Virus record (IMG/VR): IMGVR_UViG_3300006810_000037
Coordinates: 5,775 to 69,774 of that record
From: a virus
Length of the DNA stretch: 64,000 nt
Strand: one strand, 5' to 3'
Under the pieces are notes generated by a model. The model saw nothing but the letters and a program-made list of their open reading frames with translations, did no database searches and had not been told where the DNA came from. Both the position numbers and the translations under genes were made by a program. Positions 1,201-41,084 of the stretch are shown one piece after another. Numbering within the stretch: position 1 is the first letter of the stretch; each line of letters starts with the position of its first letter.

Positions 1201-4059
1201 TTAGAATCCGAAACCTGGTAAACCACCAAAGCCACCACCTGCTCCTCCTAATAAATCTCCTCCGAAATCGGAGGTGAAATCATCTAAGAAGCTTTGACCT
1301 GAAGTTGATTTCTTAGTTTTAATTGTAGTATTATTACCAAAATCTGCAAAACTATTAGGTGATTGTATCGAAGGTGTATCAAGAAAACTTCCGATAGAAC
1401 CCAAGGCCGCTTCTGGACTTGAAGTATTTAAACCTCCTAATATGTCGAAATCTCCAAATTCAGCCTTTACTTCTTCTTTGCTTTGCCCTGGGAAAAAAGT
1501 ATCATAAAACTCATTCTCTGTTCCTTTAAAACCTGCTTGTTGAAATATACCAAATAGACCTGCTCCTTCTCGTCCGCTTTCTTTATCTATTTCCCTTTCA
1601 ATATAATCCACTCCAAGTGTTTCTTGACTAATTTCTTCACCTGCCTCTGCAAGTGCTTTAATCCTTTCTCTTAAAGTAGCAGCATCTTGACCTTGAATCG
1701 TACTGATAAGAATATTTTTAACTTCATCTAATTCTCCTTCTCCTTTTACAAGTCCGAGTTGCCTTCCAATTTTAGTGTTAGGGCCAACACCTGCATTATC
1801 TAAAACACCTTCAGCAAATTCATCGGGTGAAATAAAATTACCAAAGACACCGCCGCCTAGTACATCGCGTTCGTCAAGAAGACTAGGTATAAGCTCAAAA
1901 TTTTTATACCTTTCAATACGATCCTGATCAATTGGATTATCAAAAGCAGCAAAGGTAATTGGAGCCCCGTCTAATAAAATTTCATTTCCATCAATATCCC
2001 TTCCGCCTCTGGTAATGTCGTATAAAGTTCTTGCAAAAGGCTCCTTTTGAATATCGTAAATTAAATTACCTTTATTGTCTTCAAAAGGTTGAGGGACAAT
2101 ACCTCGCACAAGAAGAGCATTAAGGTATTTAGGATCGCCTGACTGAGCCCGTTCAAATTGTTCTTTAAAAAAGTTTTTTTGAAACTCTAGCTTTCTTTCG
2201 TATCTTGAAGAATCTGCTGCTACTTGCTCTTTAACTGGACGATCAAAAAATGGATTTTCAAAAAATCTTGCATCAAAATTTGCATCTAATCCATCTACTG
2301 GCTTTAAGGCATCTAAAAAAGTTTTAGTCTGATCCAATGCTAAAACCTGCAAAGCATTTTTAGTAGACTGCGTCTGAAACGGAGTTTGCAGTTCTTCATC
2401 AACATCGATAAAATTTATAAACTCATTGATTGATTTAGACGCGTTAAATCTTGGGCGTAGATAATCATTAATAAAATCACGAGCAAATTGAGAATCAATA
2501 CCTTTGTAATTAAAATCAGGGTTATTTGGATTGTCTATAGCCTTAATTTCATTATCTATTTTTTTAATACGGTCAAACGTATCTATTTTTTTTCCACTAG
2601 GAACAAATTCTCTACCTGATATAGTAAATAAAATATCTCTGCCACCAGGTAGTTCTTTTAAATACTCCACTACGTCATCTGTTTTCTCAAAGCCTGTTTC
2701 TCTCAAAAACTCTCTGGTAAATTCACCAGAATCTTTATCAAAAACTTCGCCTTTTTTTTCTAAGGCTTGTGATCTAAACTCTTTTTTACTTCCATTTTTC
2801 GCATAAAAAGCTCTACCGAAATCAGCTTTTGATACTTGGCGGCCGTTTGCATTTGCTGATGAACCGAAACCTTGGTTGTTTGTTTTACTTACTACTTCTT
2901 CATAGGCTTCTAAAACTTTAGGATTAGTCTCTACATAAGCAATATAATCTTCTGGTTTTGGTTGAGCATTTTCTAAAATATCTTTTTCTAACTCAAGATC
3001 TGCGAATTTTTTTTCATAATCTTTTGCGTATTTTTCAACCAGATCTTTTTCAAAAAAGTTTTGCCAATTAACGATAGTGCTATTACCACCAAATTGTCCT
3101 AGAGCCCCTCCTAATGTTTTACTGATTTCATCTCTTACACCGGTTGGTAATAATCCTCCGGCATCGCCCAACAAGTCATTTGCTGCGTTACTTCCAAAAT
3201 TACTAAATTGAGAACCTAATAAATTATTTGTTATATCAAATTGCTGTTCTTCTCTTTTTGCACGCTCCAGTCTATTAATAGTAGTTCGTAAAACATCTTC
3301 TGAAAGCCGACCAAATTGTCTAGTTTGTAATAGACCTTCTTCACCTAGTGCCGTAGTTACACTGTCTTCAGCCAATTCGTCTTTTTTATCAGCTCTAAAC
3401 AGATTAATTGTTTGTTGAGTAACGGCAGGACCACCTTCAAAACCTAGCGGGTTGTCACCAACAAATTTTCCTTTACTTGCAAAAGCATTTGGCTCTCGAT
3501 TTTGCGTAGCTCCATTGAATTGATAATCTCCGGCAGCAAACGTGTTGATATCTGGGAAAGTACCCAGGATATCTAAATTGCCTTCTTCAACTGCTCGTTC
3601 ATATTCAGCTTTGACTTCTGGATACTTTTCTAAATAAAATACAGGGTCAAAAAAATTGTCGGCTGAAACAGGTCCTGATGTAAGAGATACAGGCGAGTAT
3701 CCAGGAACTTGTCTTGTGTCAAAAGGCTTGACAACAAAATCTTTATAAAAGTTATCATAAGATTTAAGCAATGCATTTTTCTTTCCGTCAGATATTTGTA
3801 GATTATTAAGTAAAAAATTCTTTTTAGTAAGGTATTGATTTTGGGTATTTAAAGAAGTTCTAGCTTCTTGTACAACAAGATCTATCGCCGCATTAATTCT
3901 TCTTGCTACATTTAATTGTTTACCAGAATAATCGTTTTCATTAAGCCTATTAACAATAAATTTATCTTTTTTTGCATTGTACCTAAAAATCTCATCTGGC
4001 AGTTTTGCCTGATTCATTCCTCCCGTCTGTGTTTCTGGCTGTGTCTGTGTGCTATTCAT
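1201..4059 (-). CDS. Large putative internal virion/ejection protein
   Basis: 952-aa ORF in the structural module with a Gly/Phe-rich C-terminus; function inferred from context only. Confidence 0.55.
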   Translation of the reverse strand: MNSTQTQPETQTGGMNQAKLPDEIFRYNAKKDKFIVNRLNENDYSGKQLNVARRINAAIDLVVQEARTSLNTQNQYLTKKNFLLNNLQISDGKKNALLKSYDNFYKDFVVKPFDTRQVPGYSPVSLTSGPVSADNFFDPVFYLEKYPEVKAEYERAVEEGNLDILGTFPDINTFAAGDYQFNGATQNREPNAFASKGKFVGDNPLGFEGGPAVTQQTINLFRADKKDELAEDSVTTALGEEGLLQTRQFGRLSEDVLRTTINRLERAKREEQQFDITNNLLGSQFSNFGSNAANDLLGDAGGLLPTGVRDEISKTLGGALGQFGGNSTIVNWQNFFEKDLVEKYAKDYEKKFADLELEKDILENAQPKPEDYIAYVETNPKVLEAYEEVVSKTNNQGFGSSANANGRQVSKADFGRAFYAKNGSKKEFRSQALEKKGEVFDKDSGEFTREFLRETGFEKTDDVVEYLKELPGGRDILFTISGREFVPSGKKIDTFDRIKKIDNEIKAIDNPNNPDFNYKGIDSQFARDFINDYLRPRFNASKSINEFINFIDVDEELQTPFQTQSTKNALQVLALDQTKTFLDALKPVDGLDANFDARFFENPFFDRPVKEQVAADSSRYERKLEFQKNFFKEQFERAQSGDPKYLNALLVRGIVPQPFEDNKGNLIYDIQKEPFARTLYDITRGGRDIDGNEILLDGAPITFAAFDNPIDQDRIERYKNFELIPSLLDERDVLGGGVFGNFISPDEFAEGVLDNAGVGPNTKIGRQLGLVKGEGELDEVKNILISTIQGQDAATLRERIKALAEAGEEISQETLGVDYIEREIDKESGREGAGLFGIFQQAGFKGTENEFYDTFFPGQSKEEVKAEFGDFDILGGLNTSSPEAALGSIGSFLDTPSIQSPNSFADFGNNTTIKTKKSTSGQSFLDDFTSDFGGDLLGGAGGGFGGLPGFGF

Positions 4060-13754: not shown

Positions 13755-14577
13755 CTCCTGGTCTCCAATTTCTTGAAGGGGTGGACCATCTCTTCATCCC
13801 AGAGGGATGCCGGACGCTGTATCTGGTATTACGTTACAAGATCGTGTAACACCCAGTGGCCTCTGCACGTTCCAATCACGGGCTTGATTGGCTTCGCTCA
13901 GGATTACCCTCGTCTTTACGTTAGGGCTTCCCTGAATTCATCCGGTTTTCACTTAACGATTGCTCGCTAAGGTGACAACGCTTGAGAAGTTCAGGTGAGG
14001 TAAAATTTGGAAACTTGTTCATAAACATCATGAATCCAAAATTAGTCTCAGGATTTGGTAATCTCTACTTAACTGAATCCGGAAGAGCTTTTGAAAAACA
14101 CTTGGACGATAATGACCAGGAGTATTTTGAAGAACTTCCTATACAACACACTAGTAAGTATGATCGTGTCTCAATCCTTGTTGACAGTAAAAGAAAAAGA
14201 TTTAATTTACACGTCTTAATGGCTGTTGCTTTCTTGGATTTAGATTTGCGTTCACATGGAACACACAACTTTTCTTTGCAAGTTAATCATATAGATAACA
14301 ACAAAAGAAATAACAATCTAAATAATTTAGAGATTGCTACTAAACAAGAAAACCTTATAAGAAGCTGGACTGAAAACAATCAAATTAACAATGGTTTTGC
14401 AAGTAAAGGAAAGGCGAAAACATCACTCAGGAAATTTTCTAAAGAAGATGTGAAACAAATTAAATCTTTAAAAGAAGCAGGTCTTTCATACAGAAAGATT
14501 GCTGAAAAATTTAATTGTAATCACGGTGCTATTTACCAAATGCTGAAAGGTAATACCTACCAGGATCTGAACTAGCT
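13755..14577 (-). mobile_element. Group I self-splicing intron (823 nt) in the major capsid gene
   Basis: 5' exon ends in U and intron ends in G; P AAUUCAGGGAAG, Q AAUCCUGAGC, R GUGCAGAGGCCA, S AAGAGAUGGUCC; P3 CCGGA/UCCGG; IGS CGUUGUCA (13980-13973) pairs with both exons. Confidence 0.92.
14030..14575 (+). CDS. Intron-encoded HNH homing endonuclease with C-terminal HTH (antisense to the intron)
   Basis: LHVLMAVAF...VNHIDNNKRNNNLNNLE...EN HNH motif; GLSYRKIAEKFNCNHGAI HTH; TAAAAT at 14001-14006 upstream. Confidence 0.88.
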   Translation: MNPKLVSGFGNLYLTESGRAFEKHLDDNDQEYFEELPIQHTSKYDRVSILVDSKRKRFNLHVLMAVAFLDLDLRSHGTHNFSLQVNHIDNNKRNNNLNNLEIATKQENLIRSWTENNQINNGFASKGKAKTSLRKFSKEDVKQIKSLKEAGLSYRKIAEKFNCNHGAIYQMLKGNTYQDLN

Positions 14578-30289: not shown

Positions 30290-30570
30290 CTATTTTTTTA
30301 AAAAAAATAATTTTTTTTGTTTTTTAAGGTTAAAATTTGGTTAAAAAAGCTATATATATAGGCCGATTTGGGAAAATATTCTGCTGATCATTCTAGCGCG
30401 GGTCTCATTTTTCCCAAACCGAGAGGAAAAAAAATAAACAGGGGATGTGCCTGTGGATAACCCTGGGGATAACGGGGCCAGGCCTGGGAAATGTGGGGAT
30501 ATCCTGACAATTCCTGGGGAGAAAGATGGGGAAATATTAAGATTTCCTGTAGATATCCTGTGGAAAACCA
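30290..30570. other. AT-rich tract plus cluster of DnaA-box-like sites
   Basis: Poly-A/T runs at 30290-30360; TGTGGATAA 30452 (perfect), TGGGGATAA 30464, TGTGGAAAA 30559 and four weaker co-oriented copies. Confidence 0.6.
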
Positions 30571-30699
30571 CCGTTCTAGCTGTGAAAAACGCTGAGATCC
30601 ATTGCGGCGCAAGGAGTTTCCTCAATTCCACAGGTGAGCCGGGCATGTATGTGGATGGTGTATGATCGCGCACGCATTCCTATGTGTTCGACGGAATGG

Positions 30700-30728
30700 T
30701 TGCAGCACTGCCGCTGATGGCCTATAGT
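30700..30728 (+). promoter_or_regulatory. Putative sigma70-type early promoter
   Basis: TTGCAG-N17-TATAGT. Confidence 0.5.
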
Positions 30729-30767
30729 GGATTCATCGGGGACGCCACGGGCTCTCCGGTCAATCGG

Positions 30768-30795
30768 TTGACAGGTCCGCCGGATCTGCTACGAT
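30768..30795 (+). promoter_or_regulatory. Putative sigma70-type early promoter
   Basis: TTGACA-N16-TACGAT with extended -10 TG. Confidence 0.6.
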
Positions 30796-30841
30796 TGAAC
30801 CAAGCGAGGCGGGTGACAGCCGCAGCGCTACAGTTATCCGA

Positions 30842-30875
30842 GCAGGTCACCACCCTGCGCACCTAGACAATTGAA
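30842..30875 (+). promoter_or_regulatory. boxB-like hairpin plus boxA-like antitermination element
   Basis: GCAGG-TCACCAC-CCTGC followed directly by GCACCTAGACAATTGAA, similar to cyanobacterial rrn boxA. Confidence 0.5.
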
Positions 30876-31033
30876 GAAGAGTACCGGCACCGATTGGTTG
30901 CAGGTGGGCGAACTAGAGCCAGCCCCAGTCCGGCCCGGATGCGCGTGACACCGATGGTGTGTGTCACAGCCAGGGGGAGACATCCTCTGTAGCTGAAACG
31001 TAGGCTTTTTGTAAGCTGATGGTAGGCAAATTG

Positions 31034-31120
31034 TGCGGAGTGGCAGCCGCAGCGGACTCATAGATTCACCGTTCCCGGTCCCAAGGGGGGACTGTGCAGG
31101 TTCGAGTCCTGCCGGGATCC
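31034..31120 (+). ncRNA. tRNA-like structured RNA (not a canonical tRNA)
   Basis: D-arm-like GCGG-AGTGGCAG-CCGC; T-arm GCAGG-TTCGAGT-CCTGC; acceptor-like GTTCCCG/CGGGATC lying 3' of the D-like arm. Confidence 0.65.
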
Positions 31121-31164
31121 TTGGCAGCAGTAATGTTGTCAATTGTCCTATCACCACTAAGACA

Positions 31165-31338
31165 ATGATTTCTTTTTCTAAAGTTGAAGCTGATTTTCTT
31201 TCTCATTGCATGGAAATTTTCGCTGATACTTTCAAGGAAGGTGAAGAGATGAACTTCACTGATTATGATCGTGAGAATATTCTTATGAATCATCTTCAGA
31301 TTGAAGAACTTTATCGGAAACTTCAAACATTAAGCTGA
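31165..31338 (+). CDS. Small early protein (57 aa)
   Basis: ATG follows the shared ATCACCACTAAGA leader; 3' part of tracked ORF 31033-31338. Confidence 0.7.
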   Translation: MISFSKVEADFLSHCMEIFADTFKEGEEMNFTDYDRENILMNHLQIEELYRKLQTLS

Positions 31339-31428
31339 TCCGTTCAAGCGGGTCCGGAGTGTGCAATCCCTCCGGCAGTTATTGTCAGCAGCAATGCTGA
31401 CATTCGTTCTATCACCACTAAGAACATG
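31333..31428 (+). repeat. Intergenic structured repeat, copy 1 (mini-tRNA-like fold, hairpin, leader)
   Basis: Near identical to 31775-31870; AGCTG/CAGTT, CCG-TTCAAG-CGG, CCGGAG-T-G-TGCAATC-C-CTCCGG, TCAGCA-GCAA-TGCTGA. Confidence 0.9.
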
Positions 31429-31761
31429 CCTGTTAACAATCCAGACTTACTCTGTGCTTACGGAAGTATGACTGAGCGTCAACAGAAACGCTATGACAAC
31501 TTGAAAGTTGAGCATAGATATGCACGTTTCTGTGCAGACAATGATCGTAACGGAAACCCTCGGAGAATCTGGGTGGTTTCTAACGACAAAGGTGAGGCAT
31601 TATTTGCCTGGGATGAAGGTTACCATGGCCGCAATTGTGTGCCGGGTAGTTTACGTCGATCCTTCGATGATCATTCTGTAAGGGTAGATTGTAACGTCGC
31701 GACTTATCAAATGTTGAAGAAGTTACCCTCCCCTGAATTCGTACCTAATTTCAATTGGTAA
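31426..31761 (+). CDS. Early hypothetical protein
   Basis: NDRNGNPRR...DEGY motif seen in phage early proteins; shared leader. Confidence 0.75.
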   Translation: MPVNNPDLLCAYGSMTERQQKRYDNLKVEHRYARFCADNDRNGNPRRIWVVSNDKGEALFAWDEGYHGRNCVPGSLRRSFDDHSVRVDCNVATYQMLKKLPSPEFVPNFNW

Positions 31762-31774
31762 TTACCATATTGAA

Positions 31775-31870
31775 AGCTGTTCCGTTCAAGCGGGTCCGGA
31801 GTGTGCAATCCCTCCGGCAGTTATTGTCAGCAGCAATGCTGGCAATTGTTCTATCACCACTAAGAACATG
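31775..31870 (+). repeat. Intergenic structured repeat, copy 2
   Basis: Near identical to 31333-31428. Confidence 0.9.
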
Positions 31871-32089: not shown

Positions 32090-32090
32090 T

Positions 32091-32153
32091 GACGAAACTA
32101 TCCCTCCGGGGATAGTCTCCGGACTTGGCATGTCCGGACTGATGAGTCTGCCA
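32091..32153 (+). ncRNA. Type II hammerhead ribozyme, copy 1 (predicted cleavage after C32117)
   Basis: GAC-GAAAC-TATCCC(TCCG)GGGATA-GTC-TCCGGAC(TTGGCAT)GTCCGGA-CTGATGA-GTC-TGCCA; intact core; loop-1 TGGCA pairs with 3' TGCCA. Confidence 0.93.
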
Positions 32154-32176
32154 CTTGTTCAATCACCACTAAGAAC

Positions 32177-32938
32177 ATGTCAAGTAACGGTTACGTTCTA
32201 CAGCGCGGACTTTCACCTATCAATGGTGAACCTTTCGTTGTAATCATGACAATGAAGTCTTCAAATAAGAAGACCAGTAATATGATCCAGGTCTGGATAT
32301 TGCATGAGGATGTTAATCCTGTTGATGCAATTAAATCAGGCTTAGATGAAACTATATGTGGATATTGTTCACATCGTTTTCGTCTACATCCTGATGGCAA
32401 GTTACATAGGACTTGTTATGTGAATCCAGGTCAAGCACCATTATCTATCTGGCGTGCATACAAGAGGGGTTTATACCCAGGCATTAACAGCTGCTTTAAT
32501 GTTGTCCGGTTATTATCGGGCCGTCATATTAGATGGGGTGCTTATGGGGATCCTTCTGTGATCGACCCTTCTATTGTGAAATCTTTCAATGAGAAAGCTG
32601 AGGGCCACACTGGATACACTCATCAATGGAAGCATTCATTTGCTGATGCTTTCATAGGTGTGTTCCAGGCATCATGTGATTCTTTCGGTGATTATCTTGA
32701 GGCCTCTTCTAAGGGGTGGAAATGTTTCTCAGTTGTTAACAAGGGCGATACCAATGTGGCTAACATCGGCAAGCTATGTCCGACTGAGGTTCCAAACTCA
32801 CAAGCTAAGTGTCAATCATGCACTCTATGTGATGGTTCAAAGACTGATATTTTCATCCCTGCTCATGGCACGGGTGGCAAATTAGTCTCCTATGTAAGCC
32901 AAGATGTGCACGAGCTTTCTGAGCTGCTGTTCAATTGA
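32177..32938 (+). CDS. Cys-rich putative Fe-S/radical-SAM-like phage protein
   Basis: SSNKKT...CGYCSH...CYV...IRWGAYGDP...TGYTHQW...ASCDS...CP...CQSCTLC...AHG. Confidence 0.7.
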   Translation: MSSNGYVLQRGLSPINGEPFVVIMTMKSSNKKTSNMIQVWILHEDVNPVDAIKSGLDETICGYCSHRFRLHPDGKLHRTCYVNPGQAPLSIWRAYKRGLYPGINSCFNVVRLLSGRHIRWGAYGDPSVIDPSIVKSFNEKAEGHTGYTHQWKHSFADAFIGVFQASCDSFGDYLEASSKGWKCFSVVNKGDTNVANIGKLCPTEVPNSQAKCQSCTLCDGSKTDIFIPAHGTGGKLVSYVSQDVHELSELLFN

Positions 32939-32942
32939 TCTC

Positions 32943-33005
32943 GACGAAACTATCCCTCCGGGGATAGTCCTAGGGTTTAGCATCCCCTAGCTGATGAGTC
33001 TGCCA
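32943..33005 (+). ncRNA. Type II hammerhead ribozyme, copy 2 (predicted cleavage after C32969)
   Basis: Same core and stem III; different but fully paired stem I CTAGGG(TTTAGCATC)CCCTAG; CTGATGA-GTC-TGCCA. Confidence 0.9.
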
Positions 33006-33025
33006 CTATTCTTTTCAACAATCCA

Positions 33026-33397: not shown

Positions 33398-33404
33398 GCA
33401 CTGT

Positions 33405-33503
33405 GATCTGGGCTGCATCTTGGCGTGACTGTGTGGTGCTTTCGCGCCATGATTCTCTACAGCGTAAGACCCAGGTTTGGGGGGTTGCGCCTACAACTCC
33501 CCT
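33405..33503 (+). ncRNA. Intergenic long hairpin with TAAGA bulge plus second hairpin
   Basis: GATCTGGG/CCCAGGTT closing stem; TGGTGC-TTTC-GCGCCA apex; GGGGGTTG...CAACTCCC downstream. Confidence 0.5.
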
Positions 33504-33563
33504 AGCATTCAATCAACAAGGCTTCATCACCACTGAAGTCTCACACATACATCAACTAAACCC

Positions 33564-39301: not shown

Positions 39302-39390
39302 GGGAGCGTGCTGAAATTGGTAGACAGAACGGACTTAAAATCCGCCGAGCTGTAAAGCTCATGTGGGTTCAAGTCCCGCCGCTCCTACCA
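39302..39390 (+). tRNA. trnL: tRNA-Leu(UAA) with encoded CCA
   Basis: Acceptor GGGAGCG/CGCTCCT; D-loop AATTGGTAG; anticodon loop CT-TAA-AA; long variable arm GAGC/GCTC; T-arm GTGGG-TTCAAGT-CCCGC. Confidence 0.95.
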
Positions 39391-40964: not shown

Positions 40965-41084
40965 GAGAACGCTTGTAGCTGATTCCCCTGTAGCAAAGTG
41001 TTTCCATGGTCAGTTCATCGTCAAATCTCAGGCCCCGTTCCCTGCCTGAAGAAGTGCGCCGGTGTAAACCGGTGAACGTTCTCC
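40964..41084 (+). ncRNA. Candidate multi-stem ncRNA
   Basis: GGAGAACG/CGTTCTCC closing stem with three internal hairpins. Confidence 0.4.

What the first reader, a model, noticed from the sequence alone, without database searches (positions are those of the whole stretch)
31333..31870. Duplicated mini-tRNA-like RNA motif with a TGCAATC T-loop
Seen in sequence: two near-identical 96-nt copies fold as a three-way junction with closing stem AGCTG/CAGTT, hairpin CCG-TTCAAG-CGG and arm CCGGAG-T-G-TGCAATC-C-CTCCGG, followed by a GCAA-tetraloop hairpin. In copy 1 the upstream stop codon overlaps the closing stem. Inference: a T-arm stacked on an acceptor-like stem is the shape read by RNase P and RNase Z. 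Alternatively this is an unrecognised self-cleaving ribozyme, since it occupies the same slot as the hammerheads and twister-sister ribozymes use a similar UGCAA loop.
Basis: partly seen in the sequence, partly recalled or inferred. Interest (0 to 1): 0.75.

Follow-up and report, generated by a model that had tools for sequence, protein, structure and literature searches.

The report
Widespread tRNA-like punctuation RNA in phages
A 47-48 nucleotide RNA fold that imitates the acceptor/T-arm half of a tRNA sits between the small early genes of many phages, in the very slot where sister phages carry self-cutting hammerhead ribozymes, so it most likely marks where the long phage messenger is cut into pieces.

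Summary
The window holds two 97-nt repeats (96% identical), each with a 48-nt three-way junction (3WJ), a GCAA hairpin and a start-codon hairpin.

The 3WJ belongs to a large family that Rfam 15 does not match. My model found 137 copies in 86 sources, including cultured cyanophages S-EIV1 (2 copies) and S-SBP1 (1 canonical copy plus variants). Covariation supports 13 of 15 pairs.

The consensus has a 5-bp closing stem plus a 7-bp arm, a 12-bp stack like a tRNA's acceptor plus T stem. Its 7-nt loop keeps G53, U54, C56, R57, A58, Y60 and C61; only position 55 differs.

In sister phages the same slot, sometimes before the same gene, holds a type II hammerhead. The first slot holds a canonical anticodon-less tRNA-like element joined to the same downstream hairpin.

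Best reading (about 0.45): a tRNA-minihelix mimic that lets a host tRNA 3'-processing nuclease (RNase Z type) cut polycistronic phage mRNA after the closing stem. The next mRNA then starts with a protective hairpin. A 5' cut by RNase P is unlikely as the main event, because the upstream stop codon often lies inside the closing stem.

No cleavage was observed. A new self-cleaving ribozyme is not excluded (about 0.17).

The parts
31333..31380 (+). 3WJ motif, copy 1: closing stem 31333-31337/31376-31380, hairpin 1 31340-31351, T-arm-like arm 31354-31375
   Evidence: 81 bits with R1; 64.4 bits with family model R3
31336..31338 (+). TGA stop of upstream ORF 31165-31338, lying inside the closing stem
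   Evidence: the same arrangement in at least 62 of 125 family contexts
31381..31383 (+). AUU linker; predicted cut after A31381 (inferred, not shown)
   Evidence: AUU follows the motif in 104 of 123 contexts
31383..31402 (+). 8-bp hairpin with GCAA loop; proposed 5'-end protector of the downstream mRNA
   Evidence: a hairpin begins 1-4 nt after the motif in 108 of 123 contexts
31406..31428 (+). start-codon hairpin GUUCU-AUCACCACUA-AGAAC followed by ATG 31426
   Evidence: invariant loop, covarying stem in 56 modules
31775..31822 (+). 3WJ motif, copy 2
   Evidence: 59.8 bits with R3
31823..31846 (+). linker A plus GCAA-loop hairpin after copy 2
31847..31870 (+). start-codon hairpin and ATG 31868 of the 73-aa ORF
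31071..31120 (+). canonical anticodon-less tRNA-like element (TLE) in the first slot: 7-bp acceptor, D-like hairpin, T arm GCAGG-UUCGAGU-CCUGC, discriminator C
   Evidence: 64.2 bits with R2; family covariation in 10 of 16 pairs
31121..31167 (+). GUAA-loop hairpin (31121-31142), start-codon hairpin and ATG 31165 after the TLE; the same downstream module as after the 3WJ
   Evidence: (family D1)
32090..32156 (+). type II hammerhead in the next slot; predicted cut C32117|U32118; no separate hairpin, its stem I takes that place
   Evidence: 35.4 bits, gathering 37, E 1.7e-4; counterparts in L005 score 35.9 and 36.0 bits
32942..33006 (+). second hammerhead-like element, identified by eye (GAAA, GUC, CUGAUGA, three stems)
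   Evidence: its counterpart L005:1424-1490 scores 36.0 bits, but cmscan did not report the window copy

Best explanation
The 3WJ is a member of a widespread phage RNA family that mimics the acceptor/T-arm minihelix and elbow of a tRNA. It is transcribed inside polycistronic early mRNA, directly after (often overlapping) the stop codon of one small gene and 10-49 nt before the next start. The proposed mechanism is inferred, not shown. A host tRNA 3'-end endonuclease of the RNase Z type docks on the T-loop/elbow mimic. It measures the 12-bp stack and cuts after the unpaired A that follows the closing stem (A|UU). The upstream mRNA keeps its stop codon and ends in a compact tRNA-like fold that shields its 3' end. 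The downstream mRNA starts 2-3 nt before a stable hairpin that shields its 5' end. The element therefore does, with a host enzyme, the job that type II hammerheads do by self-cleavage in the same slot of sister phages. Shown here: the structure, its conservation, its tRNA-like signature, its placement, and its interchange with hammerheads and with canonical tRNA-like elements. Inferred: the cleavage, the enzyme and the end protection.
For: (1) Structure. 137 copies in 86 sources. 98.2% of 1411 cells are paired. 13 of 15 pairs have compensatory changes, against a shuffle mean of 8.0 (0 of 500 shuffles reach 13). The covariation score is 0.568 against 0.161, and slid controls give 4-6 pairs and at most 0.137. 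58 G.U pairs fit the gene strand only.
(2) tRNA signature. The 7-nt loop is closed by G-C and carries U, C, R, A, N, Y at T-loop positions 54, 56-60. Two members have the canonical U at 55. The stack is 12 bp in 69 of 95 sequences. An unpaired A follows in 104 of 123 contexts.
(3) Same slot as real tRNA-like elements. 22 of 24 sources of the window's lineage have exactly one TLE, in the first slot. It is 49-50 nt (59 nt in one, L056), against 48+1 nt for the 3WJ, and is joined to the same hairpin. The family model run with filters off puts 4 TLEs, aligned in register, among its best sub-threshold hits (8.7-10.7 bits). Cultured phage S-SBP1 has a graded series ahead of gp01, gp02 and gp03: a canonical-T-loop element, an intermediate and a 3WJ.
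(4) Same slot as hammerheads. Of 56 start-hairpin modules, 21 follow TLE+hairpin, 8 follow 3WJ+hairpin and 27 follow a hammerhead. The 81-aa 'MRTI' orthologues (71-77 of 81 identical) follow the 3WJ in 5 loci (three full-length, L044, L046, L052, plus two contig-truncated, L035, L047) and a hammerhead in 5. The 62-aa 'MTYS' orthologues follow the 3WJ in L031 and a hammerhead in L045.
(5) The extra hairpin occurs with TLE and 3WJ but not with hammerheads, whose stem I would end up at the new 5' end. It begins 1-4 nt after the motif in 108 of 123 contexts.
(6) A 3' rather than 5' cut. The upstream stop codon lies in the closing stem in at least 62 of 125 contexts. This includes the annotated gp02 of S-SBP1.
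(7) Background. RNase Z, RNase P and the CCA-adding enzyme read the elbow and the distance from it (PMC4810234, passages read).
Against: No RNA end was observed. The only RNA data were short metatranscriptome contigs that cannot show ends.
ARAGORN, the Rfam tRNA model and my TLE model (default filters) do not detect the motif.
The acceptor-like stem has 5 bp, not 7, and the side hairpin branches at a different place from a tRNA D arm. Position 55 is G. Whether RNase Z accepts this is unknown.
Hairpin 1 (CCG/CGG), both junction dinucleotides and both loops are far more conserved in sequence than a shape-only signal needs. The D-like hairpin of the canonical TLE varies freely. This points to an additional specific contact or chemistry. 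Part of that conservation is by construction, because 62 of 95 distinct sequences match the 23-base pattern used to fetch loci.
The preference of RNase Z for U after the cut and the protective effect of 5' hairpins are recalled, not checked here.
Confidence: 0.45

Rival explanations
1. It is a new class of small self-cleaving ribozyme that substitutes for hammerheads in phage operons.
For: It shares slots with type II hammerheads and replaces them before orthologous genes. That genomic association is how several ribozyme classes were found (PMC5737381, passages read). About 25 of 47 positions are nearly invariant, including the junction and both loops. This also holds in the 33 of 95 distinct sequences that do not match the fetch pattern. 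The motif occurs in contigs binned with very different organisms, as would suit an element that needs no specific host factor.
Against: The junction has only 2+2+0 unpaired nucleotides. The arm loop reads as a T-loop position by position. No Rfam ribozyme model matches it. The added downstream hairpin and linker are shared with an obviously tRNA-like element, which places the functional boundary at the motif's 3' edge. I recall no known small ribozyme that cuts there. A graded series from canonical T-loop element to 3WJ exists in S-SBP1.
Confidence: 0.17
2. It is the binding or cutting site of another protein, phage-encoded or host (for example RNase III, RNase E, or a dedicated phage endoribonuclease or translational regulator). 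The tRNA likeness would then be incidental.
For: The high sequence conservation of hairpin 1 and the loops fits sequence-specific protein recognition. The motif sits with a second conserved hairpin on every start codon in the window's lineage.
Against: The motif occurs in unrelated phage types: S-EIV1-like, T7-like S-SBP1, and contigs binned with Ktedonobacteraceae, Clostridia and an archaeon. No shared phage protein was identified, though I did not search for one systematically. The T-loop signature and the 12-bp stack would then be unexplained coincidences.
Confidence: 0.13
3. It acts in translation. It could be a tRNA-elbow mimic, or a double T-loop module that binds a tRNA elbow or ribosome site. 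It would hold terminating ribosomes and hand them to the next start (termination-reinitiation coupling).
For: The stop codon lies inside or next to the closing stem (at least 62 of 125 contexts). The next start lies 10-49 nt after the motif in 113 of 125 contexts. Both loops fit the five-nucleotide T-loop pattern U-N-N-R-A. Paired T-loops are the known RNA device for docking tRNA elbows (PMC4810234, passages read).
Against: Hammerheads, which cut RNA and would separate the two cistrons, replace it before the same genes. In the horse-gut contig the stop codons lie 6-13 nt upstream and the next starts about 45-65 nt downstream. Some orthologous genes lack any element (L046, L074).
Confidence: 0.1
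4. It is excised on both sides and works in trans as a small tRNA-like RNA, for example as a decoy for a tRNA-binding host factor or defence.
For: There are up to 3 tandem copies per locus. A discrete 47-50-nt tRNA-like unit could be released by RNase P plus RNase Z. Canonical TLEs sit in 5' leaders where both cuts are harmless.
Against: A 5' cut would remove the stop codon of the upstream gene in about half of the contexts. There is no anticodon arm and no encoded CCA. Hammerheads can replace it.
Confidence: 0.1

Closest known systems
tRNA punctuation and plant-mitochondrial t-elements (tRNA-like folds cut by RNase P / RNase Z to make mRNA ends)
   Same: A tRNA-shaped fold between cistrons of a polycistronic transcript that would define mRNA ends through tRNA-processing nucleases (PMC8003010, passages read).
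   Different: This is a phage of bacteria, not an organelle. The fold is a 47-nt three-way junction without an anticodon arm, with a 5+7 bp instead of 7+5 bp stack and G at T-loop position 55. The stop codon inside the stem argues for a 3'-only cut. Processing is not shown.
Tandem type II hammerhead ribozymes in phage and prophage polycistronic RNAs
   Same: It occupies the same intergenic slot, in the same lineage and before orthologous genes. Tandem hammerheads cutting polycistronic RNA are documented (PMC3088659, passages read).
   Different: It lacks the hammerhead core (CUGAUGA, GAAA, cleavage triplet). The junction is almost without unpaired bases. It needs an added downstream hairpin that hammerhead slots lack.
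Canonical anticodon-less tRNA-like element (TLE) of the same phages (window 31071-31120)
   Same: It has the same length (49-50 nt against 48+1 nt), the same three-way architecture and the same linker and downstream hairpin. The family model aligns TLEs in register at 8.7-10.7 bits.
   Different: The TLE has a 7-bp acceptor, a 5-bp T stem, a GGUUCGANUCC-type loop and a freely varying D-like hairpin. It occurs once per phage, only in the first slot. The TLE model does not find the 3WJ.
RNase III processing sites between the early genes of phage T7 (recalled, not checked here)
   Same: These are host-nuclease sites that punctuate an early polycistronic phage mRNA and leave protective hairpins. 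S-SBP1 is a T7-like phage and carries the 3WJ in its early region upstream of the RNA polymerase gene.
   Different: The fold is different and the nuclease would be different.
tRNA-like ends of long non-coding RNAs and viral tRNA-like structures (TYMV type)
   Same: They mimic the T-loop/D-loop elbow to recruit tRNA enzymes (PMC4810234, passages read).
   Different: Those are terminal elements of eukaryotic or plant-virus RNAs. This one is internal, repeated and bacterial-phage encoded.
Interdigitated double T-loop modules (L1 stalk, RNase P S-domain, T-box stem I)
   Same: Two loops each fit the five-nucleotide T-loop pattern within about 50 nt (PMC4810234).
   Different: Those modules bind tRNA elbows rather than imitate them. 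Whether the two loops here interdigitate cannot be told from sequence.

Membership tests
tRNA-like element (acceptor/T-arm minihelix mimic) | 7-nt T-loop closed by G53-C61 with U54, C56, R57, A58, Y60 (positions recalled from textbook tRNA numbering) | tested here: met
   Of 95 distinct sequences: G 95, U 95, C 94, A/G 95, A 95, pyrimidine 89, closing C 93.
tRNA-like element (acceptor/T-arm minihelix mimic) | U (pseudouridine) at position 55 | tested here: not met
   G in 93 of 95 and U in 2 of 95.
tRNA-like element (acceptor/T-arm minihelix mimic) | 12-bp helix from T-loop to the 3' end, followed by an unpaired discriminator | tested here: met
   12 standard pairs in 69 of 95 and 11 in 23 of 95. 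There are no unpaired bases between arm and closing stem on the 3' strand. A follows in 104 of 123 contexts. Coaxial stacking itself is not testable here.
tRNA-like element (acceptor/T-arm minihelix mimic) | D-loop/T-loop elbow contact | not testable with these tools
   Candidate partners are nearly invariant: G of hairpin-1 loop in 94 of 95 and C of arm loop in 94 of 95. No covariation is possible.
tRNA-like element (acceptor/T-arm minihelix mimic) | recognised by tRNA gene finders or models | tested here: not met
   ARAGORN finds only tRNA-Leu. Rfam tRNA gives no hit at E<=10. TLE model R2 gives no hit.
tRNA-like element (acceptor/T-arm minihelix mimic) | cleavage by RNase Z and/or RNase P | not testable with these tools
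   Only contig-level RNA data were available.
Hammerhead ribozyme | three-way junction with the CUGAUGA / GAAA core and a cleavage triplet | tested here: not met
   The junction strands are AU, GU and none. Rfam hammerhead models hit only 32090-32156.
Twister-sister, pistol, hatchet, twister, HDV-like (Rfam models) | match to the family covariance model | tested here: not met
   No match at E<=10 on 6 kb, 451 nt and 141 nt stretches.
Interdigitated double T-loop module | two five-nucleotide T-loops that intercalate | tested here: inconclusive
   Both loops fit U-N-N-R-A. The three-dimensional arrangement is not testable.
New 3WJ family defined here (model R3) | RRCUG-AU-CCG-UNNAAG-CGG-GN-(6-7 bp arm ending RGG)-UGCAAWC-(CCY...)-CAGYY | tested here: met
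   The window copies score 64.4 and 59.8 bits with R3.

The most novel reading that the evidence does not exclude
The 47-nt three-way junction is a new class of small self-cleaving ribozyme. Its two T-loop-like hairpin loops would dock to build an active site, and phages would swap it freely with hammerheads. A variant of this reading: it is a double T-loop device that grips host tRNA elbows.
Probability: 0.17. Interest if true: 0.92.

Novelty: new variant of a known kind. Interest (0 to 1): 0.8.

Why it matters
If the reading holds, phages of cyanobacteria and other hosts punctuate their early operons by borrowing the host's tRNA-maturation machinery. They would use a minimal tRNA mimic and treat it as interchangeable with self-cleaving ribozymes.

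That would give a concrete biological role to the long-puzzling tandem hammerheads of phages: cutting plus end protection. It would extend the tRNA punctuation principle from organelles to phages. It would also add a well-supported RNA family that Rfam 15 does not match and that has over a hundred members.

Two cultured phages carry the motif: S-EIV1 with its Synechococcus host PCCC-A2c, and S-SBP1 with WH7803. The question is therefore directly testable.

If the motif instead cuts itself, it is a new ribozyme class.

Either way, a 47-nt insulator or processing element could be useful for building synthetic operons.

Tried and rejected
**Searches that found little or nothing**
- The first pattern was built from the window's own loops. 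It gave 0 hits in viral contigs, because the bulged U and the UUCAAG loop are lineage-specific.
- Relatives were sought through the neighbouring 253-aa protein. Of 14 loci, only 1 (L005) carries the RNA elements.
- The start-hairpin pattern gave 15 loci. Only 2 are relatives (L031, L032); the rest are coding-sequence chance matches.
- The metagenome scan gave 41 loci. I kept 20 by eye as relatives and dropped 21 as chance matches.

**RNA and sequencing data**
- Sequencing runs: freshwater DNA runs hold the stretch, and six metatranscriptome runs hold small shares.
- Laying four RNA runs gave only short low-depth contigs. Contigs begin at 32134-32148 in four runs, 16-30 nt after the predicted hammerhead cut. 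One contig ends inside the repeated 3WJ, as assemblies do at repeats. No verdict on RNA ends or expression follows.

**Model and database checks**
- Rfam was scanned at gathering and E-value thresholds. Nothing matches the motif. The window's second hammerhead-like element is not reported either.
- TLE model R2 does not find the 3WJ.
- The 3WJ copies of the closest relatives alone (8 copies, 6 distinct) gave no covariation: 14 of 15 pairs never vary.
- A regex for hammerheads in the 80 S-EIV1-like loci gave matches in 8 loci, and about 2 look convincing. This is a crude screen.

**Partial match**
- In Bacillus SPO1-like phages only the arm hairpin matches (16.1 bits), so they are not members.

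**Literature**
- Paper searches found no description of this motif.
- The supplements of PMC10690425 list 10,006 candidate structured RNAs from IMG/VR. They are closed, so the motif may be listed there anonymously.

**Tool status**
Full report
**What is in the window**

The window is bases 5775-69774 of a 69.8-kb phage record with terminal repeats. Its DNA polymerase is 57.6% identical to that of the freshwater cyanophage S-EIV1. Rfam also finds a glutamine-II riboswitch, a group I intron and a tRNA-Leu.

The reported repeat is real: 31332-31428 and 31774-31870, 97 nt, 96% identical. Each copy folds into three parts:
- a 48-nt three-way junction (3WJ; 31333-31380 and 31775-31822);
- a GCAA-loop hairpin that starts 2-3 nt later;
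- a hairpin with the loop AUCACCACUA whose 3' strand runs into the ATG.

The TGA stop of the upstream ORF (31336-31338) lies in the closing stem of copy 1. Folding energy alone is not striking for the 3WJ (z -2.1 and -1.2). It is better for the whole module (z -3.4 and -2.6).

**The slot**

The four start codons at 31165, 31426, 31868 and 32177 are each preceded by the same start-codon hairpin. What differs is the element in front of it:
- a tRNA-like element (TLE, 31071-31120) plus hairpin;
- the 3WJ plus hairpin, twice;
- a type II hammerhead (32090-32156; 35.4 bits against a gathering score of 37).

A second hammerhead-like element follows at 32942-33006. I identified it by eye. Its counterpart in the 94%-related contig scores 36.0 bits, but cmscan did not report the window's copy.

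**The window's own lineage**

A pattern built on the hairpin and start-hairpin module fetched relatives. It gave 3 viral contigs and 41 metagenome loci, of which I kept 20 by eye.

In the window plus 23 loci there are 56 start-hairpin modules. Of these, 21 follow TLE+hairpin, 8 follow 3WJ+hairpin and 27 follow a hammerhead (regex classes checked with models). The separate hairpin goes with TLE and 3WJ and is absent from hammerhead slots.

The TLE occurs once per locus in 22 of 24 sources and is always the first element. It has a 7-bp acceptor stem, a D-like hairpin, a T arm with a GGUUCGANUCC-type loop, a discriminator and no CCA. It is 49-50 nt long (59 nt in one locus, L056, which carries an extra small hairpin). 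Covariation supports it: 10 of 16 pairs have compensatory changes and 92.6% of cells are paired, while slid controls give 0-1 pairs.

Orthologous genes show that 3WJ+hairpin and the hammerhead are interchangeable:
- The 81-aa 'MRTI' protein (71-77 of 81 residues identical) follows the 3WJ in L035, L044, L046, L047 and L052. It follows a hammerhead in L038, L040, L045, L060 and L069.
- The 62-aa 'MTYS' protein follows the 3WJ in L031 and a hammerhead in L045 (57 of 62 identical). It follows nothing in L046 and L074.

Within this lineage the 3WJ hardly varies. In 8 copies (6 distinct), 14 of 15 pairs never change. So this lineage gives no covariation for the 3WJ.

**The wider family**

The model of the window's copies hit the cultured phage S-EIV1 twice, at 47.2 and 38.1 bits. 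The arm helix there is completely re-written but still paired. The two copies sit in about 100-nt gaps between small genes.

The model found 137 copies at E<=0.001 in 86 sources. Counts per source were 47 with one copy, 27 with two and 12 with three. Copies in one source are always on the same strand, with a median spacing of 334 nt.

On the 95 distinct sequences:
- 98.2% of 1411 cells are paired;
- 13 of 15 pairs carry compensatory changes, against a shuffle mean of 8.0 (0 of 500 shuffles reach 13);
- the covariation score is 0.568 against 0.161;
- slid controls give 4-6 pairs and at most 0.137.

There are two caveats. The alignment was fitted to the model. Also, 62 of the 95 sequences match the 23-base fetch pattern, so conservation of the closing-stem core, hairpin 1, the junctions and part of the loop is partly by construction. 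The arm helix was free, and it is the part that covaries most. The 33 sequences that do not match the pattern keep the same core.

The consensus is RRCUG-AU-CCG-UNNAAG-CGG-G(U/A/C)-NNNNRGG-UGCAA(A/U)C-CCYNNNN-CAGYY. The typical length is 47 nt. The window's lineage adds one bulged U.

No Rfam family matches, even on 141-451-nt stretches at E<=10.

A scan of 185,579 species genomes gave 10 loci. The model confirmed copies in 7 of them at E<=3e-5, with an eighth (L197, the Cyanobacteria MAG) only a marginal partial match at E 0.0012. All are MAG contigs. They are labelled Ktedonobacteraceae (one with 3 copies), Clostridia (rabbit), Bacteroidetes (pond), Cyanobacteria and an archaeon (horse faeces, 4 copies between co-oriented genes). 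So the motif reaches well beyond cyanophages.

A BLAST with the S-EIV1 copy found the T7-like cyanophage S-SBP1. Its early region, upstream of the RNA polymerase gene, has three tandem elements ahead of gp01, gp02 and gp03:
- one with a canonical GGGUUCGAGUCCC T arm (587-633; 8.6 bits);
- an intermediate (928-976; 20.5 bits);
- a canonical 3WJ (1325-1371; 64 bits).

The annotated gp02 ends on the 3WJ's UGA.

**Why it reads as a tRNA mimic**

- The arm loop has 7 nt closed by G-C. It shows U, C, purine, A, any base and pyrimidine at the places of T-loop positions 54 and 56-60, in 89-95 of 95 sequences. Only position 55 is G, and two members have U there. The tRNA numbering is recalled.
- Closing stem (5 bp) plus arm (7 bp) gives 12 pairs in 69 of 95 sequences and 11 in 23 of 95. 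That is the length of acceptor plus T stem.
- An unpaired A follows in 104 of 123 contexts, then UU.
- The canonical TLE has the same overall length and the same junction to the same hairpin.
- With filters off, the family model aligns 4 TLEs in register among its best sub-threshold hits (8.7-10.7 bits, E about 0.5-2.6). This is weak, but it is consistent with the S-SBP1 series.

**Placement and what it says about mechanism**

I examined 125 distinct contexts.
- The longest upstream open frame ends on the UGA at motif nucleotides 4-6 in 62 of them. This is a lower bound, because my rule sometimes picked frames that run through the motif.
- The next ORF starts 10-49 nt after the motif in 113 of them.
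- A hairpin starts 1-4 nt after the motif in 108 of 123 contexts. The mean folding energy of the next 32 nt is -9.1 kcal/mol, against -5.1 for control stretches.

A canonical RNase P cut 5' of the closing stem would strip the stop codon from about half of the upstream genes. A cut after the discriminator-like A keeps the stop codon. It leaves the tRNA-like fold on the upstream 3' end and puts a hairpin at the new 5' end. That mirrors what hammerhead cleavage yields: stem III on the upstream piece and stem I on the downstream piece.

RNase Z reads the elbow with its flexible arm. RNase P and the CCA-adding enzyme also measure from the elbow (PMC4810234, passages read). tRNA-like folds are already known as mRNA processing signals in mitochondria (PMC8003010, passages read). 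Tandem hammerheads are known to cut phage-type polycistronic RNAs (PMC3088659, passages read). That RNase Z favours U after the cut, and that 5' hairpins protect, I recall only.

**What remains open**

No cleavage was seen. The RNA runs that hold the region are assemblies of short contigs and gave no verdict.

Hairpin 1, the junctions and the loops are much more conserved than the canonical TLE's D-like hairpin. That leaves room for a specific chemistry (a ribozyme) or a specific partner.

I put the host-nuclease punctuation reading at about 0.45. The rivals are a new ribozyme at 0.17, another protein partner at 0.13, a translation-coupling role at 0.10 and a trans-acting tRNA-like RNA at 0.10.

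My eight paper searches found no description of the motif.

Noticed in passing
window 31143-31167, 31406-31428, 31847-31870, 32157-32179; similar hairpin about 33517-33545: Every early gene start in this lineage sits at the foot of a hairpin with an invariant loop (C/U/A)AUCACCACUA(N) and a covarying stem (GUUC/GAAC, UUGUC/GACAA, GUAGU/ACUAU). No Shine-Dalgarno sequence is visible. It looks like a dedicated translation-initiation or regulator-binding signal. It is seen in all 56 modules.
   Followed up: partly
window 31071-31120: A canonical anticodon-less tRNA-like element of 50 nt with no CCA. It occurs once per phage, always in the 5' leader before the first early gene, and is supported by covariation. 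ARAGORN and the Rfam tRNA model do not detect it.
   Followed up: yes
window about 30570-31070: A GC-rich stretch of about 500 nt without a convincing ORF lies between the iteron region and the TLE. Parts are shared with distant relatives (for example the string around GCUGCUACGAUUGAAC in L032 and the corresponding region of L034). It may be a large structured leader or non-coding RNA. Rfam finds nothing there.
   Followed up: no
window 30440-30570: A cluster of DnaA-box-like repeats (TGTGGATAA and variants) lies between the divergent gene blocks. The same kind of repeats lies upstream of the TLE in L034. It is a candidate replication origin.
   Followed up: no
window 32942-33006: A second hammerhead-like element has a G-to-A change in the stem I loop that would weaken the loop-tail pseudoknot. 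cmscan does not report it, although its counterpart in L005 scores 36.0 bits.
   Followed up: partly
window 33398-33563: A structured 165-nt intergenic region is conserved in L031. S-EIV1 has look-alike intergenic elements (CCCUGGGC...GUCCCAGG). No Rfam match. It may be yet another element of the same slot system.
   Followed up: no
window 13762-13994 (-), 41027-41081 (-), 39302-39390 (+): A group I intron (87 bits) lies next to the major head protein gene. There is also a glutamine-II riboswitch (47.2 bits) and a tRNA-Leu(UAA).
   Followed up: no
L206 (Bacillus phage Goe3, KY368640.1) 4001-4019; 41 Bacillus phage records: A hairpin GCUAG-GUGCAAAUC-CUAGC with the same unusual T-like loop sits inside the tRNA gene cluster of SPO1-like Bacillus phages. 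It lies among further unannotated T-arm-like hairpins. It is not a full family member (16.1 bits, arm only).
   Followed up: partly
L196 (MAG contig labelled archaeon, horse faeces) 2024-3748 (-): Four family copies have the closing stem ACCCU/AGGGU and no UGA inside. Each is followed by a run of U. The junction dinucleotide AU is kept, so its conservation is not only a stop-codon effect.
   Followed up: partly
Read laying records 9 and 12 (runs X16, X17), window 32136-32181: RNA-library contigs share the hammerhead 3' part, the start hairpin and the ATG with the window. They then continue into different genes. The RNA modules are therefore shuffled between gene cassettes in related phages.
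   Followed up: no
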